From positions 10,218 through 74,217 of IMG/VR virus record IMGVR_UViG_3300022890_000019: 64,000 nucleotides of DNA; one strand, 5' to 3'. The stretch's first letter is position 1, and each line of letters opens with the position of its first letter. A model generated the notes under the pieces. The model made no database searches and had not been told where the DNA came from. It saw nothing but the letters and a program-made list of their open reading frames with translations. A program made the translations under genes and the position numbers. Shown here one piece after another: positions 609 through 64,000 of the stretch. This DNA comes from a virus.

Positions 609-736
609 TAACTAATCTATATTTACAGTTACTTGTCTGTTTAGCCTTTATGTTTTATGGAGTAATACTTGGAATGGCAATACCTGAACATTGGTATACA
701 GAATATAAAAATAAGAAAGGAAAGAATAATGAGTAA
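605..736 (+). CDS. small single-TM membrane protein (43 aa, not in ORF track)
   Basis: ATGA overlap with the upstream stop. Translates as MITNLYLQLLVCLAFMFYGVILGMAIPEHWYTEYKNKKGKNNE; its stop overlaps the next start. Confidence 0.55.
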   Translation: MITNLYLQLLVCLAFMFYGVILGMAIPEHWYTEYKNKKGKNNE

Positions 737-1328
737 AATAAAAGAACTATTCAACGAGGATAACACCTCTATAAAAAAAGCAATAGAATCCATTGACGCG
801 AAGATGTTGAAGTATCAAATAACTAATAAGTTTGATACTATCTTCGACTTGATTGGTGAGGATTTAAGAGACATTGAAATACTTGAATCGTTATCCCAAT
901 CAATAAATGAGGATGGTGATAAAGTTTTATCTTTCGATGCAGATAAAGGTAAAATATCTATTATTATTGATAAGGAAGGTAAGGATGTACATATGTCATT
1001 TGTGGGTGATAAAGGTAATGGGTATAATCATATTCAAATTTATCCTCAGCTATCCCACCCCACAGAAGGTGATATTACCTATAAATGCTGTAGGTGTAAT
1101 TATACATGGACACATGAAGATGATGCTTGTCCTCAATGTGGTTGTAAGGAAGTTACTGATATTAAAGTTAGGTTATCCCAACCAATTACCGATAGACAGG
1201 TAATAGATGAGGCATATAGTTTGTATCCAATGATTTATACAGATACAGAAGAGAGTACTAGAATGAAAATATTACGAGATAGTTTTATAATAGGTGCTAA
1301 ATGGCTAAGAGAGAAAGGAAACAAATAA
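729..1328 (+). CDS. modular hypothetical protein with an internal Zn-ribbon (CCRC...CPQC) and C-terminal F-x-x-GAKW module
   Basis: ATG at 729 follows AGAAAGGA and is preferred over TTG 669. Segments are separated by LSQS, LSHP and LSQP linkers. Confidence 0.6.
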   Translation: MSKIKELFNEDNTSIKKAIESIDAKMLKYQITNKFDTIFDLIGEDLRDIEILESLSQSINEDGDKVLSFDADKGKISIIIDKEGKDVHMSFVGDKGNGYNHIQIYPQLSHPTEGDITYKCCRCNYTWTHEDDACPQCGCKEVTDIKVRLSQPITDRQVIDEAYSLYPMIYTDTEESTRMKILRDSFIIGAKWLREKGNK

Positions 1329-1331
1329 ATT

Positions 1332-1907
1332 ATGAAAACAATAATATTGAACAATGAAAATTATACCTATAGTTCTAAAAAGGAATTATTAGCTATAATT
1401 GAAAAGTATCCTAATATTAATTTTTTAGGTAGATATGAAATAGGTGACTATTTCACAGCTGGTGACAATTTCACAGCTGGTGACAATTTCACAGCTGGTG
1501 ATAGTTTCAAAGCTGGTTACAATTTCAAAGCTGGTGACAATTTCACAGCTGGTTACAATTTCACAGCTGGTGACAATTTCACAGCTGGTGACTATTTCAA
1601 AGCTGGTGACAATTTCACAGCTGGTGATAGTTTCAAAGCTGGTTACAATTTCAAAGCTGGTGACGGTTTCAAAATAAAAAATCACATAATAATCCCTAAT
1701 ACATACAAGTATATTGCTCGTTGTTATTATGAAGAAAACAGTAAGCAATGGTATGTCCAATTAGGATGTTTTTTAAGAACATTATCAGAATGGGAGAATG
1801 ATTTTTGGAATAATAAAAATGAATTTCCTAATGATAAGAATAAAAACTCAACTAAAAGGCTCCGGGTATATAATCTATTAAAAGTAATTATTCTGGAACT
1901 GGATTAA
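1332..1907 (+). CDS. hexapeptide-repeat (beta-helix-like) protein with C-terminal QLGCF...W...FW domain
   Basis: 13 copies of G(D/Y)(N/Y/S/G)F(T/K)A. Confidence 0.8.
   Translation: MKTIILNNENYTYSSKKELLAIIEKYPNINFLGRYEIGDYFTAGDNFTAGDNFTAGDSFKAGYNFKAGDNFTAGYNFTAGDNFTAGDYFKAGDNFTAGDSFKAGYNFKAGDGFKIKNHIIIPNTYKYIARCYYEENSKQWYVQLGCFLRTLSEWENDFWNNKNEFPNDKNKNSTKRLRVYNLLKVIILELD
1443..1676 (+). repeat. 18-bp coding tandem repeat, 13 units
   Basis: Consensus GGTGACAATTTCACAGCT, directly visible. Confidence 0.97.
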
Positions 1908-1928
1908 ATTAATAAAGAAAGGAAACAA

Positions 1929-2405
1929 ATGAAAAAAGAAATAAAAGAAATGGTATTGAAAATAGTAGATGACTGTTTTTATATATTTGCAAGTGGTTAT
2001 AGGGAAGAAGCAGAAAATAATGCAAGGATTGTATTTGAAGAGTTATATCCTCAGTTATCCCAACCAAATAGAATAAACACAAGAGAAGAAATAATAGAAG
2101 CACTCTCATTTGAATTTCAAGAAAAATATAACAGAAGTCCTTTTATCCAAGAGATAGAAGATGATGAGTGTTATTGTGATTCTTACGTTGTGTTCTTACA
2201 TGATAAATTATCTAACCAACCAGTAAGCGATGAATGGATTCATTTTAAAACACAATTACCAACTCCAAAAGATCTGCCTTTTATCACCGAAGACTTTGAT
2301 AAATTTTTCGAAGTATGGAAAGATTCGGATTATTTTGATAAACTAACAGATAACGACAGGGATTTATTTGTAAAATGGAAACCTATTAACCCACCTATTA
2401 ATTAA
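1929..2405 (+). CDS. modular hypothetical protein with a DUF551-like C-terminal module
   Basis: Ends EWIHFKTQLP...KWKPINPP. Contains internal LSQP and LSNQP linkers. Confidence 0.6.
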   Translation: MKKEIKEMVLKIVDDCFYIFASGYREEAENNARIVFEELYPQLSQPNRINTREEIIEALSFEFQEKYNRSPFIQEIEDDECYCDSYVVFLHDKLSNQPVSDEWIHFKTQLPTPKDLPFITEDFDKFFEVWKDSDYFDKLTDNDRDLFVKWKPINPPIN

Positions 2406-2421
2406 GAGAGAAAGGAAACAA

Positions 2422-2997
2422 ATGAAAGTAATATGGAAAAAACTAAATTACAAGTCAGATAAAGAAACTGTATCAATTTATTGGGATGATAAATCTATCA
2501 ATTATCATTACAATTTTATTGAAAAAAGTATAGCAGAAAGCATAAGTAAATGCGAAACTATGTTAGATATTGGTGCTGGATATGGACATTGGGTAAAATT
2601 TTATCAAAACTCCTACAAAGCAAAAGTAGAAGCAATAGAACCAGGATTAAACGAATACAATATAAAAAAATATAGGGGTTTTATTCAAGACATTACAACA
2701 GGGAAAAAGTATGATGTTATTAATGCAATAGGAGTATTACATCACATCAAAAAAGACAAAGACCTTGTAAAAGCGTTGAGTAATATTGAATCAATGATGC
2801 ACTCTGAAAGCATGTTGGTAATTGGTACAAGATTTGATTTTTTGACAGTGCCAAAAGAGTTAAACAGAAAATATAGGACACATCCACAATGGAAGGAATT
2901 ACTTAAAAACTTTGATATAATTAAAGTCAAAAGAAGTAACCCACCATTTGAATGCAGAAAGCATTTAGATGTAATTATTTGTAAGAAGAAAGGATAA
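2422..2997 (+). CDS. class I SAM-dependent methyltransferase
   Basis: MLDIGAGYG motif I, VEAIEP, KYDVINAIGVLHHI. Confidence 0.85.
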   Translation: MKVIWKKLNYKSDKETVSIYWDDKSINYHYNFIEKSIAESISKCETMLDIGAGYGHWVKFYQNSYKAKVEAIEPGLNEYNIKKYRGFIQDITTGKKYDVINAIGVLHHIKKDKDLVKALSNIESMMHSESMLVIGTRFDFLTVPKELNRKYRTHPQWKELLKNFDIIKVKRSNPPFECRKHLDVIICKKKG

Positions 2998-14333: not shown

Positions 14334-17300
14334 CTAATAATCTGATTCTTTAACATCTCTGATTCCTAAACTAGGGAATGGGTCACTAATAGATCCTATA
14401 GCTGTTCTGTATTTTAGAATGTCTTTTACCTTCTTAGGACCAAAAGTAGCATCAACAATATCTAGTAAAATAGAAGTTACAGGGAAAGGATTTAAGAACC
14501 AGTCATAAGAAATCATCATCATATTAAGATCTTTGTACATCCAGTTTAACTTGATAAGCTTTTTGTCATTATCTTTTCCTACCACAGCTCCACTAAGAGC
14601 AATTAAGAGAGAAAATACAGCAGTCTTAATAACAGTACGTGCTAAATTAAGTCTTCTCATAGGAGTCTGATTTTTCCACCAGGAGTCTAAGCCTTCATTC
14701 CTCATATTGGCTATTCCCTGTACAGCACCTACGAAGCTCTGCCATGCACCTTCTATCTCTATCCAATCTCTCTGAGTAACCCACTCACCATTTTCTAACT
14801 GTATTGCTTTAAAGCCTGCTCCAAAAGAAGTTTTTCTTGGAGATGCAAAAAGACCTGCATTCCATATTTTATCTGCTGAGAATACTCTAAACTGAGAAGC
14901 AGCAGCACCTAGATAGTCATTACCTAATAACCACTTAGCAGTATTGTCCATACTACCTATAATAAATTTATCTCCATACCATTTTAATTGTTCTGAAGCT
15001 AGGGTATGATCATGTCCTCGATCTACTTTGGTAGCATCTTCTTCCATAAGACCCTGATCCTTTAACCTATTTTTAAGACCGTTTGGACCTTCTACTAGTA
15101 CCTCTTGCTCTTTAGTCTGGGTACCATCTTCATTATAATATCTTTCGTCTTTTTTGATATCATACTGTATGTCTCCTTTTTCATTAAGAGAATAAGCATC
15201 CCAACTACCCTCATGAATCATCCATCCTGCCATACCTACTAATCTAGCTTCTGCATCAGAAGCCCAGTTAGTGATATGAGCCCACTGATCATTAAGAATA
15301 TTCCCTTTGTTAGCTACATTAAGCCATGGACTATCTATAAGGTCTCTTTCTGTACGATTTACTAACTGGAACATAGCACCGAGTCTTCTAGCTTTTTTGA
15401 AGTTAGTAGCTACTTCATATCTTGCTTTATTAACATCTCCTGTAGTAGGCAGATAGATTTTTTGTGATTCATCTAATCCTATATTTGCAATAGAGGCAGC
15501 TAAAGCATTTATCTGTTCACTCATTTCATTCCATATACCTGACTTAGCACCTATAGTCCACTTGTATCCTAGAGAGATCATACTGAATGCACTAAGAGTA
15601 GCTCTAGCAAATGTTTTAACATCTACTGTTACCCCACCGGGAAGAGTGATCTTAACAGAAGTATCTTCATTCTTTTTCATAGCTAACCTATTGCTAAACA
15701 TTTCAGCAAATCTTCTGTTGTTTACCATGAAGTCTTTAGAGTTCTTAGTAGATTCAAAGTATCCATAGACAGCATCTACATCATTAAAAGCAGGCATATA
15801 TCTATTTTCATATTCTTCTGTGCGGATCCCTTCCAATGTGTAATAGTTAATTATCTTCTCTAGGTTCGTACTTGCTAGCATATTTTTAGATAAGTCTGCT
15901 ACCGTTAAGCCATTCTTAGTATATAATAGTCCTGCTTGTTCATAAAGCTTATCCTTACTATTCATCTGTGAAGCAAAAACATTACTGATAGTATTCATAC
16001 CGCTAGTGAAAGCCATACGACTTTTATCATTTAAGTTGTCATCGATAAACTCATCATAGTTAACAAACCTTTGACCCATCCTATCCCAGGCAGCTTTGAA
16101 GTTCCCTGATAACAATGTTTCATTTAGTCCTTTAGAGATAATAACCATAGTTCCCTTTTCTACAGATTCATCAAACTCTTTAGCAACCTCTGCCTTACTG
16201 ATCTTTGAATTACCGAAAACATCTTTACCTTTTATATCACTTGTTCTACTATGATACCAGTTATCGATAGTCCTCTGACGGAATGTCTTCCATACTACCT
16301 CCATCAGTGCTTTGTCATCTTCATTATGCTTAGGATTATTAAAGTCTAATATAGGAAGCATTATAGGTACAGTCTCCCCTTTCTTATAGGTTTTAAGACC
16401 TACCTTCTGGTCTTTCTCAAGGGTAAGGGTAGTGTGCTTAAATAAATGCTTATAATAAACACTACCTTCATCTTTAATTAGTGTTTCAGCAGCTACCTGT
16501 GGATGTAAAGCAATATAATTTTTGGCTACTTTCTGTGCTTTATCATATATCTGATTATGTATCTTCATGTAACGATCTACGACTATAGAATTAACAAGTC
16601 TACCTTTAGATACTAGCATCTGTAAAAGATCATCTCTTACATTGTGGATAGGTACAAGATTCTTTTCGAACTTATTCATATCCTTGATAGAGTTTTTAAA
16701 GAAAACAGCTCCATAGCTTTCAAGTTCTAAGATACTCATAGAGACAAGAAGATCTTCATGATCTTTTTCTTTTTTATCTCTATTCCTGCCCCGTAAATCT
16801 TTCTGCAGTGCTCTTAATGCTTTTACCTGATCATGAACAGTAGTATTCCTATCCATAAATAGCGTTGAGAGGCTTTCTGCTCTATTGACATATCCATATC
16901 CATACTTGCGATATCCTTCATCATCCATAACTTTCTTTAGATACATCTGGAACCTTCTTACGAAAGACTGTTCGTATTTTGTACTATCAGAGATTTTCTT
17001 GTCTGTGAATATATCTTTAACATCATCATTAACTAGGTTATTTAACCATTCATCTTGCTGAGACAGTACATTCATATTGCTAAACATATCCTGGATGTCT
17101 AACATCATATAAGACTTAACATTGCTAGGTTGTATTTCTAGCACTCCCATGCCTCTGAACTTAACCTTACCACCACTAGCCTTCATCATGTTCATTATAG
17201 ACATAGAGAGGATAGCTCTTCTGATATCGTATGCTGAGTTACTCCAAGTACCACCAGCTTCTATAAACTTATTATCTGTCATCATAGTACCTAACAGTCT

Positions 17301-20300
17301 ATTCCTATTTGCCGGTGCAAAAGGAACTTTGTCTTGTAAGGAGAAGGTAGTAACATCAAGGATAGAGAGATCTACAGTACCATCGTCTTCGATACCGTGA
17401 ATGGTAATCAGTGGATCAAAGCCTTCAAAGGCGCTATTGTATAATGCCCTGACAGCCTTAATATCGCTGTTTTTAAGGTCACTATACTTCATTACAGTTT
17501 CAATCTTATCACCCAGGCCAAGATAGAAAGCCATATCTGTTACAGCTTTCTCGCTATATACATTACCAAAGGCCTTTTTAGCTGCATCATAGATAGTTTC
17601 CTTCTGGTCTATCACTAGGTTAATAAAGTTCTGTACATTGTTCTTATAGGATACCTCGAAAGAGTTAATATGAGGAACAATATCTTTTTCTATAGCAGCC
17701 TCTAGCTGTTCATCAGTCATCGTATTAGGATAGGCAAAAGTCTTATCTAAGCTATGGAAGACATAGTTACCTGCATCATCGGTATAGCTCTTCATCTTAT
17801 GAAGTGTCGTTCTTACAAATTCTTCTGTGTTAAGCTCACCCATAGTATGTCCATACTCTGAATAAGGATTCACTATAGCTGCAAAGTCCTTAGTGGTATT
17901 TACTCCTTCTTGTAGGTAGAACTTATTACCTTCTTCTAGGGACCTGTAAGCGTCATCTAGCTGCCATATGTCATAGTTTACTGGATCAGTACCGTACGTT
18001 TGCCTACCAGTCTCGAGGAGGAAGTCTGAGACCTTACCTTCAGTGAATATCTTATCTAGCTTCTTCCTAAAAGGAAAGAATAGATCATGAAGTGAATTGT
18101 TAACAAGTGTGTTGATAGAGGTTGCTATATTCAGTAAAGCATCTAAAGAGGTATTATCAGTAAAAAAGTCTCTGATACTCTCTTTAAGCATCACCTTCAT
18201 AGCTGTATTCCTGTTGATTATCTGTGAAAGGATGGCCAGTACCTCATGAGTTACATCACCATCGGTAGTAGGTCTATTGTGTTCTTTAAGCTTTCTTACT
18301 ACATGGTCACGGATAGGTTCTATCAGCTTATCTCCATTGTTAGCAGAGTCTATGATAGTGTTCTTAATAGTATTCCAGGTAGCAGGATCATTCATTATCA
18401 TTATCCCATTCCTGAAATGCTGAAACTCATGGACAGGCATAGTAAAAGAGAACTTCTCTACATTCATATGTATACCATCACCGTCAAACATTCCAGAGGC
18501 TCCTTTTAAAGACTCAGTAGTACCTTCTGTAATAGGTACTCCTGTTACTTTTTCCTTTAAAGCATCCATCCACCGTTGTGCTGCCTTAGTTGACAGTCTA
18601 CCTAGACTATGCTTTTTAAAGTCTATCATAGTATAGCGAGTCATAGACCCTTCTTTGCCTACATACTTGCTTAAAGCACTCATAGACTTGTTGACAAACT
18701 TCTGTGCTTCTTCGGATCCTTCTATCTCTCTTACTAGTTCACCTTCTACAGTAGCTATAAACTCACTGTCTCCTTTCTTAATTTTATACTGTGCTTTTTG
18801 ATTCTTCTCTTCCTGCTGTTTAGCTATCTTAATCTGATAGTTTTCCTTAGCTTGCTCGATCTGTTCTTCTGAGAGATCAGCTTTCACCCAAACAACGTTC
18901 GTTGGCTGTATTCTGAGGGCTCTGATCAACGTTCCCTCCTCAGTGGTATATAACCCTTCCAGACGGTCTACGTTCATATTAGCGTAGCTGTGTCCTCTGA
19001 CATATGATAATGGTACCTGCTGGTTGTCTAATAGAAGATCTAGCTTCTCAGGACTCATCTTTACTATCTCCATAGTAGAAGTCATATCCTTGACAGTATC
19101 AAAGCCACCTCTCTCACCGATTAGATATTCATAGTCGTACTTCTCAAAAGCATTACCGAAGAGATCCTGATCATTTTTTATCCTGGCAGTGAAGTTAGCA
19201 GTAAACCTCTTAAAGTCTTTACGCTTCATAATAGTCTCAGGGAAGATACCTAGGTCTCTAGCCTTACGGGTGAGGAAACTGCTCATACCCTCTTTATGCT
19301 GTACCCACTTGGTAAACCTCTCTACAAGGTCGGTAAGCCTATTCATATTCTTAGGCATCCACTCCATCTCTGCCTTAGTCATCTCAAGACTCATAGCTAA
19401 GCCATCTTCACCATAGTAGTGTTCTGTACCCATGATTTCATTGATACTTCCTTTACGGTAGTTAAAGCCTGTATTGATAAGCTGGTTGACCCTGTATAGC
19501 TCTTTTAGGTATTTAGGTAACCTGTCGAATTCTATAGCTAGATCTGATAGCTGCTGCTCGCTGAGGTTAAAGGCATCTGCTAGCCTGATATATTCTTTCC
19601 CCTCTTGTCCTTGCAGAACAAGGTTAGCGATAAACTTATTATTCTTGATAGCATCATGAAACTCATTGGTATAGTCTATCCCTATAGCCTGTATAGCTCT
19701 GGAAGCATCACCGAAGTTCATAGTAGACATACTCCTGATAAGGTCATGAAACTGTGGGAACTGCCTTACAAAGAGTGTCCTTCCTTCTACATTATCTAGT
19801 GCTACCGTCTCGTAGTTAGACTCAGGAGAAAAATAGTTACCATCAATATCCTGAAGAGGTACTGCGATGTTAAACTTCCTTCCAGTAAATGATCTCTTAA
19901 AAAACTTATCCAGGAACAACTGCTGCATACCAGACTTAAAAGTATAAAACTGCTTTGCATAGTTAAAGACATTGTTAAGTTGTCCTTTCAAATAGTTAGG
20001 AGCAAAATAATCCCAGATCACTTTGTTGTCTTCCAGGAAAGTCTTAGAAGCCACCTCTCTCTGGTTGTTGATCTCATTATAATAATCTTTAAAGTGTGTG
20101 CGTCTTACAAATTCAGAGATGTTAATAGCCTTGGCTATTTCTAGCTCATAGTCCAATAATTTCTCTGCTTCATTGTTAGCTTCATCAAATTGTGAAGATA
20201 TAAGCCTGGAATATTTATTATCCAGTTTCTTAAAGTTCTCTATATGACTCTCTGCATTCCACTCAGCACCTTGCATAAACTCCTCGTAAGTCATCCCTAG

Positions 20301-23300
20301 ATACTTAGAAAGCTCGTTCTCTGCCTTATAGAGGTCAAAGTCCATTACTGGTACTCCATTGCGTAAAGCTACAAAGCGAGTCATCCTACGTAAAGCTTCT
20401 GCTGTGAAGACGTATTTTTTAAGCTCTGTAAGGACCTGATAGTTTTCTCTTCTCTCCTGCTCACTCTTTATAGCACGTATGTCTCTGGACAGCTCTTCTA
20501 TAAGATTCATGTCCGGTGGAGTGTTCTCATCTACCTTTTCAGCTTCAGTAAGTTTTGTCTCTAAAGCTTCTCTCTTAGAAAGTAAAGATTTGTTGCTGTC
20601 AGTATTTTTACTTCTCTCGTTAAGGACCATCTCTTCAGCTACCAGTTCATATACCTGTTCTGCCTCAAAAACTTCTAAGCTGTTCTGGAAACTTCTTTGT
20701 GTATAGATCTTCTCTACTACAGGATGTTCGAAGAATGTAGCTATCTCCTGGTTGCTCTTACCGTCAGCAGTCATTACAGCTACCACGGGAACAGCTTCAG
20801 CAGTGATACCTAGCCTACCTAATACAAGCTCTTTGGCATTATCTAAGGCTACCTGCATCCAATTACCTAAATTGATAAATGGAGATGTGCTCCACTGCTC
20901 TTCGTCAAACAGTGAGAGGTTTCTTAACCCCGGAGCATTATTTCTGATAAAGGTCTTTCCTAGCTGTGCCAGGTAAGAGACTCCTGAGAGAGACATGGCC
21001 AAGATACCTATAGCCTTGTTACCTTCACTAGCAGTTTGACTACTATCAAGGTAAGAGGCAAAATCATTATCTCTTCCATACTTTCTTTTCTTTTTATCTA
21101 CAAGTTCCTTTAAGCCTTTTACATCTGACTTAATAAATATCTTACTAGCATTAGCAGGGTCCTGGTATACATTGTCTATCTCATCAAGGATAGCGTTACG
21201 AGCACCACCCTCTCCTTCGATAGCTAACTTACCATCAGCAAACTCTCTCATATATACCGTTAACTGGTCAATATCCTGGTCAGCATTGTTACGGATGTTC
21301 ATCTCTACAGGAACATAAGCTGTGTTACCATTGTCATTGATAAAAGCTGTGATCTCTAATATAGAAGCACTGCCTAACCTATCTGCAGGTACACGACCTG
21401 AATATACTTTTAGAGACTCTTTGAAGTTTCTAAAGTAAGACAGTGGATCTTCTGGACTGTTTCTAAATATAGGAGAACTCTCTTTGTTGATAACAGAGCC
21501 ACCTTCAGCTAAAGTCTGTAAGAAGTCTATAAACTCATCATCGTTTAGGTTACGTACATTCCAGGATAACACTTCTCCATTAGCTTCTGCTTCTATAGTA
21601 AAGACATCGTTAAGAGTTTCATCATTCTTTATACCAAACTCTCTCATGTAAGGATAAGGCATTACCGTCTGTCCTCTCTGAATACCTTCATTGCCAGCAG
21701 TCATATCTTTTAAGTCTGCAGGAGTATATCCGAGATCTATAAGGTCTTCTACTGACTCTATAGTGCTATTGGTAAACCGTTCTATCTCTTGTAGAGTATA
21801 AGGAATCCCATTCTCATAATAAAGCTGATAACCATAGGAAGAAGACTGGTTTACACGTAAGCCTTTAAAAGAGGTACGTATAGCATTGTCGTTTACAAAA
21901 CTCCTATAAGCCTGTTTTAACTTCTGTGCTACTTCAGGAGAATGTATAATGCCAGGGTTGTTGATAACATTGTTGATAAGGTCAGTGTATCCTGTGATAA
22001 GACCCATCTGACGTATAGCCTGTAAGCCTCTCTCTCTGAGGAAAGAAACAAACTTCTCTATATCCTGTTCGTTAAAGGCTGCTTCTGGTTTGTTAGCCTC
22101 TATACCCATCAAAGTATTTATCCTAGCCTTACTCATAGTATAAAGCTCTTCTTGTAATATCCTTATCCTCTTACCTCTGTTTAGGTTACTAGCACCTATG
22201 CCCATATAGGATAGATTCTGTGAAGGAGGAGCCTGTCTTTGTACCTTGTTAGTCTCTTGGTATGGATTTAACACTATACGCAGAGAAGAGTTGTCAAAAT
22301 CTCTTGCTATGAGATCTTTCTCTTCAGAAGAGTAAGGATCATACATGTTCACATAGTTGACAGTCTGCTTCTCTATAGTCTCATCAGCAAATCCTCTTGG
22401 AGTACGAGCCTTTATCTCTTCAGAGAAGTTACTCTCTTCTACGATCCAGTCTCTTAGGTTCCTAAATGCTTTCTGTGCATCCCTGCTACCAGCATGACCT
22501 GTAGCTTCATAAAGTTCTTTGAATTTAGCATAGAGGTCTATATCATAGTTCTCAAAGTCTTTTCTCATAACCTTTGTGACATGATCTAATAGATCTTTTT
22601 GCATCTGACGTACAGGAAGTGTCTGTTCGTAGGTCTGAGAGCTGAAAAAATTCATAGACTCTTTTTCCTGGTACTGATCACCATACTGAAAATCCATACG
22701 ATTATCCAGAGTCTTGACTCTTGTCTTGTCAATAGGACCATACTGATAATCTATACCACTTTTCTCCATAAAAGATTCCCAGAGCATAAACCCATTCACA
22801 CCACCGTCATCATTTTCTATCCATTCACCGGTCGTTGCATCTTCTTTGTACATGGTACTAACCATTATCTCCTTACCCATAGCAGGGAGACCATATTTAG
22901 TATTTACTACAAGCTTACTACCACCAGTTGCTTTAGATCCTGATCTCTTAACCTTATCAGCAGCATCTTTATGGTTCTGTACATTACCAAAGGCAAACTC
23001 TCCTACCGCATTGTTAACGATATGGTATGCATAGAAGTGAGCTTTGTAGACAGGATTCCATATTATATTCTCTGTAGTAGTTGTGACTGTGATAGGAGTC
23101 TCGGAAACACCATAGCGATTTGCTGAAATAGACATCTCTTCCATGTGCTCTTCCATCTTCTCTGTATAGAAGTAACCCATCTTACCTTCTATAAGGGTTT
23201 TTACGTCGTTTTGTTGACGATATCCTATTTGTGATAGCTTACCTGCATATTCCCTATATAGTGGAAAGAACAGCTTATCTCTTTCAGTCTTGTTTAGTAA

Positions 23301-26300
23301 GGCAAACCTTTCTCCATTGTTAGAGAACTTCTGATAGTTGTCATGGTTATAGATAGCTTCATATCCAGGTACCTTAAACAGTATAGAATTACCGAGTGTA
23401 ACAGTATTACCATCTAAGAAGTAATCTTTGTTCTTACGTAGTCCAGAACGCATTAGGTCTATAGCCTGCTCATCGGTGAGAGTCTTAGAGAAAGATTCTA
23501 GGCTTTTAGGATTAAAGTTCTTTAAGTCTTTAACAGACCATAGCTCTCTAGGAAATACTTTGGTAAGGTTGTTAGCAGGTATCTCTCTGGCAAATTTACC
23601 CTGGGACATCTGCATCTCTCTGTTAGCTCTCTCAAATTCTATAGCGATACCATGGCTTATCATCTTCTCATCTACATTAGCTGAGGTGATATTACCATTA
23701 GAGTCTCTATCTATGTTTATCAGTCTTCTTCCCTTTCCAAAGGAGAAGTCAGTATTAGTAATATATGTTAGCTCTTTATCAGCTATATTAGTCATAGTAA
23801 GAAAGATATCCTGAAGCTTATCAGTAGACTTACGTATACCTTCTATGAAATTAGCAAGGTTTATAGTAGCTAGATCTTTAGAACCAGGCTTTACAATACC
23901 TCTATTACCTACACGCAGTCCATTACCTATAGTGAGGCTTCGTATACGGATACCTTTAGGATCAGCTATCCAGTTAGTCCATTTGCCTTTAGTATTCTTC
24001 CAGATAGAGTTATCTAGTATTTCTTTAGGCATATTATTGATCTTATCAGTAAGCCACGCAGAACCATCCCCGAACATATCAAAGACCCAGGACTTCATCT
24101 TAAATCCCCAGGCTTTAGTACCATCAGGTCTATTGGAGAAGAGATCGGAGTCTATACCCTTATTATATACTTCCAGTGCTGCTATCACACCAAAGGCATT
24201 ATAATAGTCTACAGGCTTATAAATCTTAACATCACTCTTAATAGTCTCTACGTTGTTACCTGCAAAGACTTTCTCAAAACCATCTATAGTGCTATCGGTG
24301 ATGTTCATCTTCTTACGAAAGGAACTCATCTCTTGGTTGAAAGGTACAGATAGTTCTTTTATCTGCTTAGCTTCTTGCTTTTTTGCTTCCTCTTCATTAA
24401 TAGCTTTATTGTCTAGCTTACGCAATATACCCTTGTTGATAGTCTCTATCTTGTCGAGCATGGTAAGGTTAGAAGACGCAGACCAGAACATATTCATAAA
24501 GGTCTCTGCCAGGAAGGTATTAGTGTTCTCTAAGTTATACTCAGGAGTACGTTTGTTCAGCTCTACCCTAGCACCTTCATGGTGCATGTTGTTATACATA
24601 TTGTAGATAGTCTGGTCAGTGACGTTCTTGAGTCCTATAAAGTTCTTGATGTATGTGAGTATCTTATCTCTACTGTCGTTGTCATGGAAAGCCTCAGTGA
24701 AAGAGATCTTACCGTCAGTATAAGAGATGACTTTTATCTTCTGCTTGTTCTTTACATAGGAGATACCACTAGAAGTAACTTCAAACTCTGCATTCTTACC
24801 ACTGCCTAGTCTATCTTTTACATGCTCTCTGAAGCTCCGGGTGTCTTTGTCATATAGTGTCTGAGAGATGCCATCGATAATCTCTTTCTTCTTGTTATCA
24901 AAAGTATTCTCAAAGGAGTTAACAATATTATATACCGTCTCGTCTCCTGACTTCTTAGACTCTATAAAAGAAGACTTAGGCCTCATAAAAGAAATATTAT
25001 AGGATATCAGTGAGTTGATAAAGTCTGAGAGGTCACTCTGGATATCTAGCTTTAGCTGAGACACATTGCTTCTACCGTCACTCTTGATAAGCTCATCGAT
25101 ACTATTTATCCTATTGCTTAATGAAGGTTTACCTGTGAAAGCTTCAAAGAACCTATGATAGAAACTAAGGATGTTACTACCCTTATAGGTGTCAAGTCCT
25201 GCCTCAGTAGCTAAGTTATAGAGTTCCTGAGTAAAGGCCTCTACTGGATTCAGTGAAGGATCTTTTAGTAGCCTGTTAGCTACACGCATCCCTGCATCTT
25301 TCAGAGACTTCTCAAGGTCCTTACTGTTCACAAAGGCATATGCATCTTTAGTATCCCACTCGTTGCGTACCAATCTCCCATTGCTAGAATAATAGTACTG
25401 ATGAAACCTAGTAGCATTTATCTGCATCTTCATAAAGTCACTCTTAGTCTGGTCAGGATTTGCATCATCCCCGGCTCTGTTATACTGAGTAGACTGCTTA
25501 TTCCATTTGTAGAAGCGACCTGTCTCTGGGTTATACCCTGGCATAAGCCTTACTATAAAAGAAGTGAATATTTCTTGGTTAGCTAACCTAAGCCACCCTA
25601 GATTTCTTCTCTCTACTATAGAGAGTTTCTTTGCATCGTCATCAGTGATCTGGCTGTAAGGGATACCTACAGAGGTAAGCTCATCAGCAAACTCATTACC
25701 ATACTCTTCATACTCTTTCTGTACATCTTTGATAGCTTCTGTCATAGGTACTACCTTGTCAACAGATAAATCAGAAGAGAAGAAAGTATATTGTATTACT
25801 GCATCAGCTACAGCATTGAGATACTTGTTAATGTCATTACCAAATACCTTATATTGATTATTGAAGATCTCTATATAGTCAGTGTTAGGAGTATCATCTT
25901 TAGCGAATCCATCTTCTGCCTTATGGTTAAAGTTATCAGCCTGGTATTCGTCAAGCTCACTCTCTCCTTCCATTCTTACAATGTCTCTACCACCATCATG
26001 TACTGGTTGTACATTTCTATAGTAACCGTGATCCATCTTATAAAATAGCTCATCGAGAGTATTTACCCTCTTAGTATATCCATTAAAGAGCTTGTTTACA
26101 AAGTCTACAAATCTACTCCATAGTCCTTGCTTAGGCTTTACAGAGTCTAAGTTTAGTCCTGAATAGCCATAGTCTCTTGCCATCCACTCTGTAAGATAGT
26201 CTTCAGTAGCATTAGGAAGGCCTAACAGTTCCTTTGTGGCATTATAGAGCCTCTGACGAGAGTTCTCATCAATTAGGTAGTCGAATACCAGATGAAAGAA

Positions 26301-29300
26301 TTCGTGCTTAGGAGTAGTGTATTTAATACCTTTTTTATACAAGGCTAGTTTTATCCTACCATTATACATTAACCCGTGGATGTCCATACCGTCAAACTGA
26401 AGGTTAGGAGTAATATCATTCTTTACCTGTTCCCAAATAGAAGGGTGAGCTATCTTTTCGAATAGTTCTCTTACCGCAGCTACAGTTACAGTACGTGGCT
26501 CTATGTTATCAGTCTTTATTTCAAACCTAGGTCTCTTAGCACCTTTCTTACTTGCAGGTCCATCTGAACTTTTAGGAGTCTTATTAGTAATTTCTTCGTT
26601 AACGTCAACAAGTCCATCAGTAGATATATTTACATATGGAAAGTGTATAGCCTCTGCACTGGTAACGATATTCTCCATCTCACTAGGTGATAACTCTCTG
26701 GTACTTGTGCTTAGGTCTATAGTATACGGCTGGTATAGTTTGTCTATCTGTAGTCTTAGGTTCGCTGCCTCACCGGTAACGTCATCTTTATATAGCTCTG
26801 TCACCTGGTCCAGGAATGCATCTAGTACGTCAAGCTTTATCTGTGCATCGGTACGTACATTGTCTGAATCTAAAAGGAAGATATCTCTGTTTACCCTTAC
26901 ATTGACTCTACCACCTACCTTTTCAAAGTAGGTACCAAAGAAGTCGTTAAGAGCTTTGTTATTAGTAATGATGCTTAGGTTTTGTGCGAAGACATTCTTC
27001 CAGAACATCCTGTTAAGTTCACTACCAAAGAAGCTATCCTGTTCAGAGGCACGGATATCTTTTAGGCTCTGCTTGTCCTCTTTGATCTTCTCATGCATCC
27101 TCTTAGAATTCATCTTCCCAAGGTTGTTAGTCTTAAAGATCACATAGGCCTCGTTAGCAGTACTGTTTACATCACCTTCAGAGAACTTATACTTTAAGAG
27201 TAGTCCTACCCTACCACTACCATAGAATGTCTGTACTATCTTATCAGAGAAAGTAACCATTTGTCCGGAAAGTGTATTCTCTATATGAGCCATAAACTCA
27301 GCAAAAGTTCTAAGAGGACCTTTGTTATAGATTACATTACCCTCGTTGATATCATTTTCTAGTATGATCTCTCCAAAGCTGTACTCATCGGTATTAGAGT
27401 CATATCCTTTCTTTCTCAGAGAAGCCTTATAGTAGTTAACCTCTTTGTTAGCTGTATGGTGTTCTGGGCTTAGCTCCATGCCTGTATAGCTACTGTCAAA
27501 GCCTTCAGATATCTGTCGCTTTATATTCTCTAAGGGCTGTGAGTAATCTCTTATCTGCTGCTTAGCGTATCCTGCATCAGTCTCCCCCAGAGAAGCTATA
27601 TATTGATTTCTTTGTAAGATCTCTCTTTCATTACTTGTAAGAGACTCTTCGTTGATAGCACTAACCTTAATAGCTAGCACGTTGTCAAAGTTCTTCCAGG
27701 TACCAGTATTTCTATCTTCCATCAATGCTGACTTTAGATATACTAGCTCAGAAGTTACCTTTCTCTTATAGACCATGTTTAAGATAGACACTCTATCCTT
27801 ACGTAGCTGATCCATATTTACATCAGCTGACGAAGTGTTAAAGACACTATAGATAGTACCCCAAAGCTTGTTACCGTTAAGCCACGCCTTAGCTTGTCCT
27901 GTGAAGAACGTCTTACCACTCTCTATGTCATCAAGGTCAGTAGTCTCTTTAGGGCCACTGCGAAGGGTATACTCTTTCTCAAAAGTGTTAAGATCTATCT
28001 GCTTGCCACCGAGGTATATTTCATACTCTACCACACCATCAGTAGTTTTCTCTATAATAGAATCTATGATATAGAAGTTTCCTGTAGAGACTTCATCAGC
28101 TACAGCACCTTTAACGATGCTTGGCTTTCCTGGGTACTCAGTAAGATACTTGTTAGTAGTATATCCGGGAGTAGGTGCAGGAGTCTTGACTATAGGATCC
28201 AATATTCCTAGAGCTACCTGTGACTCTTTACCAAAAGGTTCTGCTAAAGTCTTGGTAAGCTCATTATAAGCTTTATATTTCTGTCCTGTAGCAAAAGAGT
28301 CTGCTGTCAGGTCTTTCTGGTTCGTTACACTCTGGGTAATCTTAAAGAAGGCACCAGAATCATCTCCTTTGTTGATAGTATAGATACCGTTCTTACGGAA
28401 CTTGTGAAGGATAGGAGTAGCTATCTTAGTCTTTACCTCTTTAGGTTTCTCCTGTGGCTTGATAGCTGACTCTATACCTATGTTCTTTAGATACTCATTC
28501 ATATCATTATAGATATCAGAAGTATCAAGTACCTCTTGCTGACCATCTATCCACCATGAAGGCCTCTGTGTAAGATTTAACCCTTCTGAGCCTACCAGAC
28601 CCATAAAGCGAGAAGCTCTCCCTACAGCTGTATAAGCACTGTTAGAAGCTACAAATTCTTTTAACTCTTTACCATTGTATTTATATCCCCAGCTATTGAG
28701 GTTTACTGCCATGTATACTTCATCTTTACGAAGACCTTGGATGCTTGGAATCTTCCTAGGCATCACATTGGTTGCAGGATCAGACATCAACACATATACC
28801 TGTCCCTGGAATTCTGTCTTTAGGTTACCATGCTTGTCAAAGAGCTTTTCAACTATCTTCCTAGTTTCCTCTTTGGTGTTAGGATCTTTTAGGAGTGCAT
28901 CTATCTGTTCTGAGTTTAAGAAGACAAGAGCACTGCTTACACTCTCTGGCCTGGACAGTGCATCACTGATAACACTATCTACAGTATTATAATATTTTCC
29001 TCCCTCTCTTCTAGTTATCCCTACTGCTTCATATTCGTTGACATACACTTCAGGATAACCCATAGAGTTATTGTCTAGTCTGTTCCTAAACGCTTCTGCT
29101 AGTCTTTCGATAACAGGATTGCGAGTGGTGAACTTAAACATCACCGGGAACGTACGAGCACCCGTCTTCTGTGCATAGGAGATATTGTTCTTAGCATCAG
29201 GAGGCATCATCTGTGAAGCATCACCGAGCCATATGATCTGAAAGCTAGGATCGGTAGTATCTTCATTATAGTTCTTATTGATAACTTGTAGGTTGTCTTT

Positions 29301-32300
29301 ACTAAGCAGAGAAGCCTCATCGACTATCATACCTTCATACTGATTAGGGTTTTGTACCTTACCACCTATGAAGTCTGCCATAGAGATATTATCAAATACC
29401 TGATCAATACCTTCTAAAGAACTGCTTAGCGTATTTAGTACCTCCTGGGTATGGTGTACCAATAAATATTTTCTTTTAGGATCTTTTTTAAGCTGGTCTC
29501 TGATAGCTATAGCTTCAGGAATCATATGCTGACTCTTACCACCTCCAAAGTCTCCTCTCATAAAGATAGAGTTAGCCATAAAGATATCTTCTTTCTCTGA
29601 CACCTTCTTTATATGTTCACTGTTGTTAAATTCTACCTCCCTGACGATCTTGAGCACATCAGCATTATGTCCTAGCAGTTGGTTTACCACCATATTCACA
29701 CCCATCATCTGTTCGAAGGTAGAGATATTCTGAGCCGTTACATTGACTTTAGACCTTGCACCCTGAAGAGTATTGATGCTCTCTCCATTAAGAGCCATGA
29801 GGAAGTTTACCAGGTAGGTATATCCTTCATGAGTCTTATATACATCATTGACACTATTTACCTTTAACAGATTATAGTAATAGTTAAGAGTCTCTCCTAC
29901 CTTAGTATAGTCAGGAGCATTGAAGTAAGCTGAGTTGTATCTGAACTTCTTAGCAGCAAGTAGCCTGTTTATAAAGTCATAGTTCACTAGCTGGTCACTG
30001 GCACCCTGCATCTTTACAAAAATGTCATGTAGCACCTTCTCACTGTTTAACAAGTCTGCCATCTCCTCTACACCCGGAGGAGTGTTTTTATCCTTTTGTT
30101 CCTGGGTAAGGTCTTTAACATCTTCTAACAGTTTCTTAATATCAGGAACGAGCTCTTCCATCATGGTAGGATCCATCTCATAGAAGAGAGTCACTACCTG
30201 CTTCTGAGCATTGATATGTCCTTGACGTAGCTTGATCTGGAAAAACTTACTAGCTTCTTTAGCTAGCTGTACACTGTTACCCATAGTATCGAGATCTATC
30301 AACATCTCACTTACTTGCTCTCTGCTATTCCTTAGCTCTGACTCACTGACATAATATTTATATGCAGGTAGCTCTTTATTCTTTGAAGGTTCTAGCTTAG
30401 GATGATCTGATCCTTTAGAGAAGAAGAACATTCCTTTATCAGCAGTCTTCAGAGCATCTCTAACAGCATTGATAGACTTAATCAAAGAGGCTGCAGTAGA
30501 CGGGTTAAGGTCAGTACTTGTCTGCTCCCTGAAGTTATCCACCCTAGCCCTCATCTCTTCGAGAAACATCATAGGTACATTGTCATCATTGCTTAGCTGT
30601 CTTATCTTCTCTGTATTCTCATCTACAAAAGCATTCTCTGATAGCTGTGTAATAGCATCTATAGTTTCCCTGGTAGTATTAAGCTGATCTTTTACATCTT
30701 CATTGGTAGGATCAGTAGCATATTCATCGTTAAGTTCTTTCTCAAGTTGTTCTAGCTGCTTCTGATATTTAGCACTTTCTCTTATTGCCTGGATCTGCTC
30801 TTCATTACCCTGTGCAGGGATACCAAAAGTAATTTCTTTAGAGAGAGCTATTATTGCCTTGCAGACACCCTCAAACCCCTTCATAAGGTCTTTCTTTGAC
30901 TTTAGCTTAGAAGCTTCACCTACGGTAGTAAATAGGTCTTTGTGGGTAACTACAGTCTCATTGTTACTCTTTACAATCTTCTCTTGCTTTTCTATTTCCT
31001 GAGTCTGGTATTCTGTGAGCTTCTGTGAGAACTCTGTAGCTTTCTCATAGGTATCTAAATGATCCAGGATATTCCTTTTGTATTTAGTCTGGTACTTCTC
31101 TGACTTCCGAAACTTATCGGTAAGCTCTGTACCTTCATTCTTAAAATGTTCATCAGAGACATTCTTAGCATAGAGTAAAGCACTATACTTCTCTCTGATA
31201 GCTTCATTATATTTCTTACTGTATTTTGTGTCTGCACCTTCAGGAACAGTATACTCTTGTATAGCTTGAGAGACAACACCTAGCTGCTCATCGATCTTAG
31301 CTATCTGTGCAGCATCTTCCTCGGTAGCCTCTTCCTTATTCTCTAATGCTAGCTTCTGCTCAGCAAGACCTTTATAGGATACGATAAGATCAGTAAGTTC
31401 TTTCTGCATGAGCTTACTCCTACCTATAGCCTCAAGTACTATTGGGTTGTCAATACCAAAATCTTTAACGATACCTTCAAACATATCCATAGACTGCATC
31501 ATACCCTGATATGCAACATCATTCATAGAACCATCAACACTCTCAGGATTTTTTATTTCTCCTTCAGTAGAGATGTAATTTGGACCTAAAGACTCTTTGT
31601 TATATAGATCTTGAGTAGCCTTTCTTAGCTTATCCATCTCACCAGTTACACCATAATAACCCATAGTATAATCTGCCATAGGATTCTTGCCGGCACCCAT
31701 AGTGAGTCCCATTGTAATACCACCCATAAATCCTGCTACAGTAGACTCTAGTACATTATCTCCTATCCTATTAGATAAGTTCTCTAAGTAACTCTTATTA
31801 GCATCTACAGGACCAAATAATCCTTTTCCTGGTAATAATCCATTCTCTCCATCATATCTTATCTGATCATGGAATGTCTGCATAGAGTTCTCTATCATCT
31901 GCTGAAAGAATTCTTCTGTTCCTTCTTCACCACCTGCTAAGATAGTTCTAGCAAATATAGTTTTCCCCTCAGAAATAGCTTTGATAAAGCCGTGCAACCA
32001 TAATCTTTTTTGTGTCTTTGTACCTTCTTTAAGATTCTTTATACCAAATTTTTTCATTACCTTTTTAGCTGCAGTTAACCTTGCTGCCTTATCTACAAAA
32101 TAACCTGATCCTCTAGCAATAACATTTCTGCCTATAAATCCTTCTGTAAATGTCTCAGAAGCTACCTGTATAGGATACATCCAAGCGATATCAGCTTCCT
32201 CTATCCCCATATCTCTAGCAGTCTGTACAAAGTGATGGCCACTCATTAATCCAAAGACTCCAAAAGATGTCCAGGTAGAAGCAAAAGATTTAAACCCATT

Positions 32301-63439: not shown

Positions 63440-64000
63440 TTAGGGGTTTACTGTAACTCCCTTACTTTCTAAACTTGTAACGGCAGCATCGCTAGCAGAT
63501 GTTCTGGCAGTATTGTTTCCCGCTAAATCAATTGTTCCTGAACTCATTCCACTGGATTCAAGATCAATCAATAAATTATCTACCTCCGTATCACTTAATC
63601 CGTATCCTGCCGCTGGTCTATGATAAAAGTAATTAATTGATGCAGAAAACGTATGCCCTGATGTATAGGTATCAACTTGGTTTAAACCAGTATTATAATA
63701 ATAAGTTAATCCACTGGGAAGACTTGCTATGTCTCCAGAAGTTGTGTTTAAACCAGTATTATAATAATCAGTTAATCCACTGGGAAGACTTGCTATGTCT
63801 CCAGAAGTTGTGTTTGAACCAGTATTATAATAATCAGTTAATCCACTGGGAAGACTTGCTATGTCTCCAAAAGTTTGGTTTGAACCATAATTTAAATAAA
63901 CAGTTAATCCACTGGGAAGGTCTGCTATATCTCCAGAAGTTTGGTTTGAACCATCATTATAATAATAAGTTAATCCACTTGGAAGGTCTGCTATGTCTCC
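63440..64000 (-). CDS. 22-aa LRR-like repeat protein, 5' part outside the window (not in ORF track)
   Basis: Open frame from 64000 reads (SGDIASLPSGLTDYYNTGSNTT)n then ...LSDTEVDNLLIDL...GTIDLAGNN...LESKGVTVNP, with stop at 63440-63442. Confidence 0.85.
   Translation of the reverse strand, partial: GDIADLPSGLTYYYNDGSNQTSGDIADLPSGLTVYLNYGSNQTFGDIASLPSGLTDYYNTGSNTTSGDIASLPSGLTDYYNTGLNTTSGDIASLPSGLTYYYNTGLNQVDTYTSGHTFSASINYFYHRPAAGYGLSDTEVDNLLIDLESSGMSSGTIDLAGNNTARTSASDAAVTSLESKGVTVNP
63677..64000 (-). repeat. 66-bp coding tandem repeat, about 5 units visible
   Basis: Recurrent AGTTAATCCACTGGGAAG...TGCTATGTCTCC on the + strand at 66-bp spacing. Confidence 0.95.

What the first reader, a model, noticed from the sequence alone, without database searches (positions are those of the whole stretch)
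891..2235. Intragenic domain shuffling via a repeated in-frame LSQP linker
Seen: five copies of a TTATCCCAACCA-like motif (891, 1041-1057, 1172-1185, 2046-2067, 2208). All are in the same reading frame relative to their ORFs and encode LSQS, PQLSHP, LSQP, PQLSQP and LSNQP. They cut two ORFs into unrelated 40-65 aa modules, including a CxxC Zn-ribbon exactly bracketed by two linkers, an F-x-x-GAKW module and a DUF551-like terminal module. Identity holds at the nucleotide level, including synonymous positions. Inference: a microhomology-driven combinatorial system that builds mosaic proteins from mini-domains, nested inside the gene-level cassette array. This two-tier diversification is a strong candidate for an undescribed system.
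Basis: partly seen in the sequence, partly recalled or inferred. Interest (0 to 1): 0.78.

Follow-up and report, generated by a model that had tools for sequence, protein, structure and literature searches.

The report
In-frame linker repeat at phage module joints
Two neighbouring small accessory genes of an uncultured 74-kb phage carry the same short DNA word (TTATCCCAACCA, Leu-Ser-Gln-Pro) at the joints between unrelated mini-domains. A few related metagenomic sequences swap modules at or next to these joints, so this looks like an example of the known cut-and-paste evolution of phage genes, not a new dedicated system.

Summary
Three copies are strong: 1041-1061 YPQLSHP, 1173-1184 LSQP and 2046-2066 YPQLSQP. 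Two are weak: 891 LSQS, and 2208 LSNQP, which is the 12-mer with a 3-nt insertion. All five share one codon phase.

Each pair alone is about what a 74-kb genome gives by chance. A 14/14 match and an 18/21 match meeting at one site never arose in 3000 codon-order shuffles. The copies use the rare Ser codon TCC, and the QP pair is always CAACCA. No other + strand gene uses CAACCA for QP.

The seven inter-linker modules are unrelated to each other. They have no paralogs in the genome.

Outside evidence is thin but points one way:
- P0019 equals ORF C residues 1-46 and diverges right after LSQP.
- The DUF551-like C-terminal module (about 88% aa identity) follows three other partners. Two of those breakpoints lie inside the 2208 copy.
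- The Zn-ribbon family's edges coincide with the two bracketing linkers.

ORF A and ORF C are each identical on 21 contigs. No recombinase was recognised among the genes scanned. I therefore read this as short-homology recombination at linker-coding DNA.

Earlier scan notes describe similar linkers in other phages; I did not check them.

The parts
729..1328 (+). ORF A, 199 aa. Four modules: A1 res 1-54, A2 res 59-104, Zn ribbon res 112-148, A4 res 153-199. No Pfam or PHROG family.
   Evidence: The identical protein P0003 is on 21 contigs. An exhaustive phmmer search finds relatives only for the Zn ribbon.
891..902 (+). Linker copy e: TTATCCCAATCA = LSQS (res 55-58). Weak copy, 11/12 to the core.
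   Evidence: Matches at 11/12 are common genome-wide. In a low-confidence AF2 model it lies between a helical and a beta-rich segment.
1041..1061 (+). Linker copy a: TATCCTCAGCTATCCCACCCC = YPQLSHP (res 105-111). It lies immediately before the Zn-ribbon module.
   Evidence: 18/20 match to 2046-2065. In 7 relatives (P0005, P0007, P0009, P0011-P0014) the Zn ribbon starts within the first 12 residues of the protein, at the position that follows this linker in ORF A.
1062..1172 (+). Zn-ribbon mini-domain (YKCCRC...CPQCGC...TDI), res 112-148.
   Evidence: Apart from ORF A's own record P0003, phmmer finds 11 proteins with E up to 1e-3 that share only this module. They have different partners or none. 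The Pfam zinc-ribbon hit on ORF A (DUF7129) and those on five scanned relatives are all below cut-off.
1173..1184 (+). Linker copy b: TTATCCCAACCA = LSQP (res 149-152). It lies immediately after the Zn-ribbon module.
   Evidence: The exact 14-mer GTTATCCCAACCAA is shared with 2054-2067. Family similarity of the Zn ribbon ends at ...TDI, a few residues before this copy.
1929..2405 (+). ORF C, 158 aa. Modules: C1 res 1-39, C2 res 47-93, C3 res 99-158. C3 is DUF551-like by motif and embedding only.
2046..2066 (+). Linker copy c: TATCCTCAGTTATCCCAACCA = YPQLSQP (res 40-46). This is the site where both strong matches converge.
   Evidence: P0019 is identical to ORF C res 1-46 and diverges directly after QP.
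2208..2222 (+). Linker copy d: TTATCTAACCAACCA = LSNQP (res 94-98). It is the 12-mer with TAA inserted.
   Evidence: DNA homology to L001 starts at TAACCAACCA, inside this copy. P0002 and L001 read A-NQPVS and D-NQPVS.
2223..2422 (+). C3 module plus the intergenic junction TAAGAGAGAAAGGAAACAAATG. Together they form the exchanged unit.
   Evidence: The unit is highly conserved in DNA in L001 and L002, from about GATGAATGG through the junction to the next ATG (the whole three-sequence alignment, divergent flanks included, has 83% mean column identity; amino-acid identity is 88-89%). Upstream and downstream sequences are unrelated.
1306..1326 (+). Second copy of the gene-level junction repeat. 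The last 7 codons of ORF A read through it.
   Evidence: The same junction precedes the ORF B homolog in L001.

Best explanation
ORF A and ORF C are small multi-module accessory proteins of unknown function. They lie in the variable, rightward-transcribed accessory region of an uncultured 74-kb tailed phage. Their modules are joined by a short linker whose DNA (core TTATCC-CAACCA, extended to TATCCTCAG... in two copies) is shared by descent between otherwise unrelated contexts.

The most likely reading is this. The shared linker DNA, like the 21-nt intergenic junction repeat at the gene level, serves as a short patch of homology of 6-20 nt. General recombination between related co-infecting phages, or between copies in one genome, occasionally resolves at this patch. 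All copies have the same codon phase, so every such exchange gives an in-frame chimera cut at a domain boundary. Selection then keeps the viable ones. No dedicated enzyme is involved, and the events are rare on the scale of a population.

Shown: the repeat, its non-random codon identity, its position at module edges, and the natural variants with breakpoints there.

Inferred: that the repeat causes the exchanges and does not merely mark them. Which recombination pathway acts is also inferred.
For: - Statistics: two independent strong matches converge on 2046-2067, which happened 0 times in 3000 codon shuffles. The in-frame 12-mer excess is 11 against 1.8.
- Identity is in DNA: TCC is 7% of Ser codons, P(same codons) = 0.014, and QP is always CAACCA here but in none of 8 other + strand QP pairs. 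L001 also uses CAACCA at both of its joints, VEQP|KGM and DNQP|VSE.
- Both flanks of copies a, b and c are unrelated. The identity is therefore an island, not the edge of a shared domain.
- Breakpoints: P0019 equals C1 plus YPQLSQP and then a different tail. The C3 module follows 3 other N-terminal partners. In L001 the DNA homology starts inside copy d, in P0002 the protein similarity starts at NQPVS, and the 3' end of the unit in L001 and L002 is the junction repeat.
- The Zn-ribbon family's edges coincide with linkers a and b.
- Single-contig alleles P0017 and P0018 carry residues seen in L002 and P0002 inside C3. This fits patchy recombination among relatives.
Against: - The data set is tiny. 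It consists of one 59-aa protein from a 594-nt contig whose DNA I could not fetch, one 101-aa protein, and two short contigs.
- Breakpoints at domain boundaries are also what random illegitimate recombination plus selection would leave.
- The L002 breakpoint is 6 residues downstream of the linker.
- L001 and L002 contain no TTATCCCAACCA-like word with 2 or fewer mismatches. Only the CAACCA core recurs.
- Distant Zn-ribbon relatives use other linkers.
- Each repeat pair alone is within chance for the genome.
- No recombinase was recognised in the genes scanned.
- Both AF2 models are of low confidence (pLDDT 44 and 46). The structural domain boundaries are therefore only suggested.
Confidence: 0.5

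Rival explanations
1. The linker marks the exchanges but does not mediate them. Mosaic joints arise from random illegitimate recombination or gene fusion, and only those at domain boundaries survive. The shared word is a passively inherited scrap, for example the tail of one module family or a target duplication left when the Zn ribbon was inserted.
For: NQPVS travels with the C3 module in P0002 and L001, and YPQLSQP travels with C1 in P0019. Each copy can therefore be read as the edge of one module. In seven relatives the Zn ribbon sits at the very N-terminus. This suggests a gene fusion at linker a, and copies a and b flank it as a 9/12 direct repeat in the 12-nt core. L002 breaks elsewhere. 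ORF A and ORF C are each identical on 21 contigs.
Against: This does not explain why the same rare-codon word sits at the right end of C1 and A2 and at the left end of A4, C2 and C3, which are all unrelated modules. It also does not explain why L001 uses CAACCA at both of its joints.
Confidence: 0.25
2. A dedicated, selected diversification device. The linker would be a recombination site that a phage function uses to reshuffle mini-domains at appreciable frequency, nested in the gene-cassette array.
For: All copies lie in one phase and one orientation. Any linker-by-linker event therefore gives an in-frame fusion. There is a two-level boundary structure with the junction repeat. Unchecked scan notes describe similar DNA-fixed linkers in other phages.
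Against: No module is re-used in the genome. No recombinase, invertase or nuclease was recognised nearby. The population is essentially monomorphic, with 21 contigs carrying the same proteins. The copies differ from one another at several positions, including two amino-acid changes and one inserted codon. The word is absent from L001 and L002.
Confidence: 0.1
3. The word is kept for a function of its own, either as a peptide (a docking or cleavage motif such as LSQ|P) or as a DNA or RNA site. Its link to module joints would then be secondary.
For: YPQLS.P is conserved in two unrelated contexts. The scan notes on T4-like phages raise protease-site linkers (unchecked).
Against: Peptide selection does not predict identical rare codons. 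Pro after the scissile bond is generally disfavoured by proteases that cut after Gln (my own knowledge). No promoter-like or terminator-like site overlaps any linker copy, and there is no Rfam match. There are no further copies with 1 or fewer mismatches anywhere else in the 74 kb on either strand. A pure DNA site would share one frame in all five copies with P of about 1/81. The genes are not in the head-gene region.
Confidence: 0.08
4. Coincidence, picked out after the fact by a reader scanning 64 kb.
For: Single pairs of this strength occur about once per genome by chance. 12-mers with two near-copies nearby are common. Two genome-contig hits to the 20-mer were chance hits in other frames.
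Against: Convergence of both strong matches on one site occurred 0 times in 3000 shuffles. CAACCA codon use and the external breakpoints are independent of the original observation.
Confidence: 0.07

Closest known systems
Recombination at conserved motifs inside T-even tail-fibre and gp38 adhesin genes (Tetart et al. 1996, 1998, as cited in Trojet et al. 2011, PMC3157838)
   Same: Short conserved sequences inside a coding region separate variable segments. Natural and laboratory chimeras have their exchange points within or near these motifs, which gives in-frame mosaics.
   Different: There the conserved motifs (His boxes, glycine-rich motifs) are structural parts of one protein family and separate variants of the same segment. 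Here the word is a 4-7 residue linker between unrelated mini-domains of non-structural proteins. The homology is much shorter, and no exchange has been observed experimentally.
PeSL (promoter-early stem-loop) cassettes of T4-type phages (Arbiol et al. 2010, PMC2839356; Comeau et al. 2014, PMC4122927)
   Same: Repeated short sequences in a hyperplastic region of small non-essential genes act as recombination points. The gene-level junction repeat here (TAAGAGAGAAAGGAAACAAATG) bounds the swapped C3 unit in the same way.
   Different: PeSLs are intergenic regulatory elements (promoter plus terminator hairpin) and shuffle whole genes. The linker here is coding, in frame, has no promoter or hairpin, and shuffles parts of genes.
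Relaxed or short-homology recombination by phage recombinases as a source of mosaicism (Martinsohn et al. 2008, PMC2327257; De Paepe et al. 2014, PMC3945230)
   Same: This provides the general enzymology that could use short, imperfect homologies between diverged phages.
   Different: I did not read these two papers beyond their abstracts, and I did not compare the length of homology they used with the 6-20 nt shared here. No such recombinase was identified in this genome.
Multi-domain DUF551 and lambda Ea22-type early accessory proteins (PMC10834534)
   Same: These are small early phage proteins. Ea22 is described as built of three domains (abstract of PMC10834534; the paper mentions DUF551, but I did not read where). 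In one automatically named cluster DUF551 co-occurs with another phage mini-domain family, Phage_phiTE_015. In L002 a bona fide DUF551 domain (25.6 bits) precedes the C3 module.
   Different: C3 itself does not match the DUF551 model. I know of no description of a DNA-fixed linker in those families.
Shufflons (Rci recombinase with sfx repeats in the pilV genes of IncI plasmids; my own knowledge, not checked here)
   Same: Short repeats inside a coding region allow in-frame swapping of C-terminal segments.
   Different: Shufflons use inverted repeats and a dedicated tyrosine recombinase to invert DNA at high frequency. Here all copies are direct, no recombinase was found, and the population is fixed.

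Membership tests
Conserved-motif-mediated intragenic modular shuffling in phages | The same short sequence is conserved in DNA in contexts whose flanks are unrelated | tested here: met
   Copies a, b and c: 18/20 and 14/14 identity with unrelated flanks. Rare-codon identity.
Conserved-motif-mediated intragenic modular shuffling in phages | Exchange points in natural relatives fall within or next to the motif | tested here: inconclusive
   P0019 diverges right after QP. L001 and P0002 diverge right before NQP. L002 breaks 6 residues away. There are only four informative sequences, and the P0019 DNA was not retrievable.
Conserved-motif-mediated intragenic modular shuffling in phages | Recombinants resolving in the motif can be recovered from crosses or seen as population variants | not testable with these tools
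PeSL-type regulatory cassette | Intergenic promoter followed by a terminator stem-loop | tested here: not met
   The linkers are coding. No terminator-like site lies in 600-2500, and promoter-like hits are below the shuffle mean and not at the linkers.
Shufflon or other site-specific inversion system | Inverted repeats plus a dedicated recombinase gene | tested here: not met
   All copies are direct, on the + strand. No recombinase family was found among the scanned genes. Not every small ORF was scanned.
DUF551 (PF04448), for module C3 | Match to the Pfam model at or above the gathering score | tested here: not met
   No hit for ORF C at E up to 0.1, nor for residues 95-158 alone at E up to 10. 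The neighbouring domain in L002 does pass (25.6 bits against a cut-off of 22). BLAST of C3 against that domain aligns only EWI...LP (E = 0.024).
DUF551 (PF04448), for module C3 | Fold and feature resemblance | tested here: inconclusive
   The nearest ESM Atlas clusters are all DUF551, but at 0.84-0.85, which the tool calls a lead only. The AF2 model has pLDDT 46.
Zinc ribbon (two CxxC knuckles) | CxxC ... CxxC spaced as in a zinc ribbon, with relatives conserving the four Cys | tested here: met
   C-C-R-C ... C-P-Q-C. All nine relatives whose sequences were fetched conserve both knuckles. No Pfam zinc-ribbon family reaches its cut-off; DUF7129 gives E = 0.082.

The most novel reading that the evidence does not exclude
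Phages of several lineages may keep DNA-fixed, phase-matched linker words between mini-domains of accessory proteins as a selected evolvability device. It would be an intron-free analogue of exon shuffling, working together with intergenic junction repeats. Whole genes and single domains would then be exchangeable in one hyperplastic region. This locus would be the Bacteroidota-type phage example.
Probability: 0.12. Interest if true: 0.7.

Novelty: new variant of a known kind. Interest (0 to 1): 0.42.

Why it matters
If the linker DNA really guides exchanges, mosaicism in small phage accessory proteins would not be purely random breakage followed by selection. These are the class that holds many anti-defence and host-takeover factors. 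Mosaicism there would instead be channelled by tiny phase-matched homologies at domain borders. That would help predict domain boundaries in orphan phage proteins. It would also explain how orphan mini-domains spread, and it gives a simple, testable model. As it stands, this is a small and thinly sampled example of a principle already described for tail-fibre adhesins and PeSL cassettes.

Tried and rejected
**Searches that found no relatives**
- Cultured-phage searches found nothing for the region or for ORF A, ORF C, the long L001 ORF or the major capsid protein (blastn and tblastn).
- IMG/VR scans with ORF A, ORF C, the C3 alignment, the ORF B alignment, P0020 and the portal found no relatives.
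- The 20-mer linker pattern has no IMG/VR hit.
- The same pattern has two genome-contig hits, both read in other frames of unrelated bacterial genes, so chance.
- The junction pattern gave one unrelated GC-rich contig.
- A genome-contig scan with the ORF C alignment found none.
- The genome search 'relatives' is not available for a virus record.
The contigs behind P0019, P0016 and P0003/P0015 could therefore not be read.

**Ideas tested and dropped**
- Rejected: that A4 and C2, the modules after LSQP, are homologous, so that b and c would be equivalent positions of paralogs (p = 0.38).
- Rejected as unproven: that P0008 aligns across both Zn-ribbon linkers. Its flanks give p = 0.019 and 0.09.
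- Rejected as unproven: that C2 is homologous to the N-terminus of P0002 (pairwise E = 0.029).
- Rejected: iterons, promoter, terminator or a known RNA.
- The tail of P0019 is not a frameshifted reading of the window or of L001. tblastn finds it nowhere in the genome, and by eye neither +1 nor -1 readings after the linker fit.

**Uninformative results**
- AF2 models of ORF A and ORF C were too poor for fold searches (pLDDT 44 and 46).
- A PDB sequence search of ORF C gave nothing.
Full report
**Context**

The window is bases 10218-74217 of a single 74,217-bp contig. The contig is a tailed-phage genome:
- Portal, major head protein and large terminase are on the minus strand.
- A DnaB-like helicase and other early genes are on the plus strand upstream.
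- The plus-strand block also holds small accessory genes, including a DUF5675 protein, a PKD-domain protein, a methyltransferase, a GH16 enzyme, a WGR-ligase and a J-domain protein.
- No cultured phage matches the region or the capsid protein.

The finding covers two of three consecutive genes: ORF A (729-1328, 199 aa), ORF B (1332-1907, with a hexapeptide tandem array) and ORF C (1929-2405, 158 aa). None of the three has a Pfam or PHROG family.

**The observation**

The five sites exist and are in frame:

| Copy | Position | DNA | Peptide |
|---|---|---|---|
| e | 891 | TTATCCCAATCA | LSQS |
| a | 1041-1061 | TATCCTCAGCTATCCCACCCC | YPQLSHP |
| b | 1173 | TTATCCCAACCA | LSQP |
| c | 2046-2066 | TATCCTCAGTTATCCCAACCA | YPQLSQP |
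| d | 2208 | TTATCTAACCAACCA | LSNQP |

Copy d is the 12-mer with TAA inserted. Copies b and c share the exact 14-mer GTTATCCCAACCAA. Copies a and c match at 18 of 20 positions.

**Is it more than chance?**

Taken one pair at a time, no.
- A second-order Markov model of the genome gives 0.8 pairs of 18/20 and 1.5 exact 14-mers within 1.5 kb. The real genome has three isolated examples of each.
- Sites with two partners at 11/12 or better within 1.5 kb are common: 66 real, about 16 simulated. The 891 copy, and by similar reasoning the 2208 copy, are therefore weak on their own.

Several independent features are not chance.
- Both strong pairs meet at the same site. In 3000 codon-order shuffles of the two ORFs, a 7-codon match of 18/21 or better arose in 1.4% and an exact 4-codon match in 3.7%. 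Both at one site never arose.
- In-frame pairs at 11/12 or better number 11, against a shuffle mean of 1.8.
- LSQP and YPQLS each occur only twice in the six-frame translation of all 74 kb.
- The identity is in DNA, not only in peptide. TCC is 7% of Ser codons, and two independent LSQP would share all codons with P = 0.014.
- All three QP pairs in ORFs A and C are CAACCA. The eight QP pairs in the other plus-strand genes never are.

The repeat is real.

**What the linkers separate**

- The seven inter-linker segments show no significant similarity to one another. The best pair is A4 against C1 at p = 0.008, uncorrected over 21 tests.
- None has a paralog elsewhere in the genome.
- An exhaustive phmmer search of 1.84 billion representatives with ORF A found relatives only for the Zn ribbon: 11 proteins besides ORF A's own record.
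- In seven of these the ribbon sits at the very N-terminus (M-E-Y-T-G-x-x-Y-K-C...). In most, similarity ends at ...TDI. In ORF A those positions lie directly after linker a and a few residues before linker b.
- The partners of the ribbon differ between relatives, and they do not use LSQP.
- P0008 seemed to align across both linkers. Once the ribbon is removed, its flanks are not significantly similar (p = 0.019 and 0.09).
- AF2 models of both ORFs are poor (pLDDT 44 and 46). They only suggest that the linkers fall in loops or low-confidence stretches between structured segments.

**Evidence from relatives**

The yield was small.

1. The C-terminal module of ORF C, from about residue 96, recurs with three different N-terminal partners.
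   - The partners are P0002 (101 aa), the long ORF of contig L001, and the ORF of contig L002. The module is 88-89% identical in amino acids in L001 and L002, and its DNA is highly conserved there.
   - In L002 the preceding domain is a bona fide DUF551.
   - In L001 the DNA homology begins at TAACCAACCA, inside copy d. In P0002 the protein similarity begins at NQPVS.
   - In L002 it begins six residues later.
   - At the 3' side, homology in both contigs runs through the stop codon and the intergenic junction TAAGAGAGAAAGGAAACAAATG. It ends just after the next start codon.
   - The exchanged unit is therefore bounded by a linker on one side and by the gene-level junction repeat on the other.
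2. P0019, a 59-aa protein from a 594-nt contig, is identical to ORF C residues 1-46, including YPQLSQP. It then continues KGMTKSKVGRKKK, which is encoded nowhere in this genome.
3. L001 has ...VEQP|KGMSEENL..., written GAGCAACCAAAGGGAATG. Both joints of its long ORF therefore use CAACCA, and the first is followed by KGM as in P0019.
4. Single-contig alleles P0017 and P0018 carry residues typical of L002 and P0002 inside C3. This fits patchy exchange among relatives.

**Evidence against an active or dedicated system**

- ORF A (P0003) and ORF C (P0015) are each found unchanged on 21 contigs.
- No module is re-used in the genome.
- The copies differ from one another at several positions, including two amino-acid changes and one inserted codon.
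- The 12-mer is absent from L001 and L002 even with two mismatches.
- No integrase, invertase or single-strand annealing protein was recognised among the genes scanned. Several genes remain without any family.
- No promoter-like or terminator-like site overlaps any linker copy, and there is no Rfam match.

**Interpretation**

The best-supported reading (about 0.5) is short-homology recombination. Linker-coding DNA, shared by descent and phase-matched, acts as an occasional crossover point between related phages. Each crossover yields an in-frame chimera cut at a domain border. The intergenic junction repeat does the same for whole genes.

[quoted passage not shown] It is also the principle described for PeSL cassettes (PMC2839356). 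Here it applies to linkers between unrelated mini-domains of non-structural proteins.

The main rival (about 0.25) is that the word only marks joints made by random breakage or gene fusion. That rival does not explain why one rare-codon word borders so many unrelated modules. A selected shuffling device, a functional peptide or DNA site, and coincidence are each at or below 0.1.

**The DUF551 label**

The 'DUF551-like' label for C3 is a lead only. The Pfam model does not match. BLAST to the true DUF551 domain of L002 aligns only 12 residues. The ESM Atlas neighbours are all DUF551, but at scores the tool calls a lead.

**Limits**

The DNA of the most telling variant (P0019) and of the 21 population contigs could not be inspected.
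- Earlier notes of this scan describe DNA-fixed in-frame linkers with module swaps in other phages. I did not test them and they are not used as support.

Noticed in passing
window 14334-33479 (-): A single open reading frame of 6381 aa (19 kb). That is a quarter of a 74-kb phage genome. It lies between virion-type genes. Two isolated 18/20 direct repeats lie inside it (22680/22737 and 25975/26896).
   Followed up: no
window 54167-57418 (-): The large terminase is 1082 aa. It carries an inserted intein with a LAGLIDADG homing-endonuclease domain (PF14528 at E = 2e-9, and Intein_splicing at 19.7 bits, below its 35.8-bit cut-off).
   Followed up: partly
window 1443-1664; L001 1230-1365: An 18-nt tandem array (GGTGACAATTTCACAGCT, 12.3 copies) encodes the FTAGDN hexapeptide repeats of ORF B. 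The 88%-identical homolog in L001 has five fewer units (30 aa, 90 nt shorter), so the copy number varies between relatives.
   Followed up: partly
window 1304-1331, 1907-1931, 2401-2424; L001 730-752 and 1087-1117; L002 about 630-655: The gene-level junction repeat TAAGAGAGAAAGGAAACAAAT(G) is conserved across contigs and bounds exchanged genes. In the window the last 7 codons of ORF A (LREKGNK*) read through it in another frame. In L001 the preceding gene stops at the TAA of the junction.
   Followed up: partly
L002 652-888: A 78-aa HNH endonuclease gene lies directly downstream of the gene that carries the swapped C3 module. A free-standing homing endonuclease could promote local gene conversion there.
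   Followed up: no
window 63679-64000: A 66-nt tandem repeat (4.9 copies, 91% matches) runs to the end of the contig. It could be a terminal or packaging-related repeat, or an effect of assembly.
   Followed up: no
window 729, 1332, 1929: ORFs A, B and C are all in the same absolute reading frame, separated only by single TAA stops and 1 or 7 sense codons. Any deletion between linker copies in A and C would therefore stay in frame.
   Followed up: partly
window 1263-1316 vs 1956-2009: Weak similarity between the C-terminal module of ORF A (KILRDSFIIGAKWLREK) and the N-terminal module of ORF C (LKIVDDCFYIFASGYREE). It gives p = 0.008 before correction over 21 tests.
   Followed up: partly
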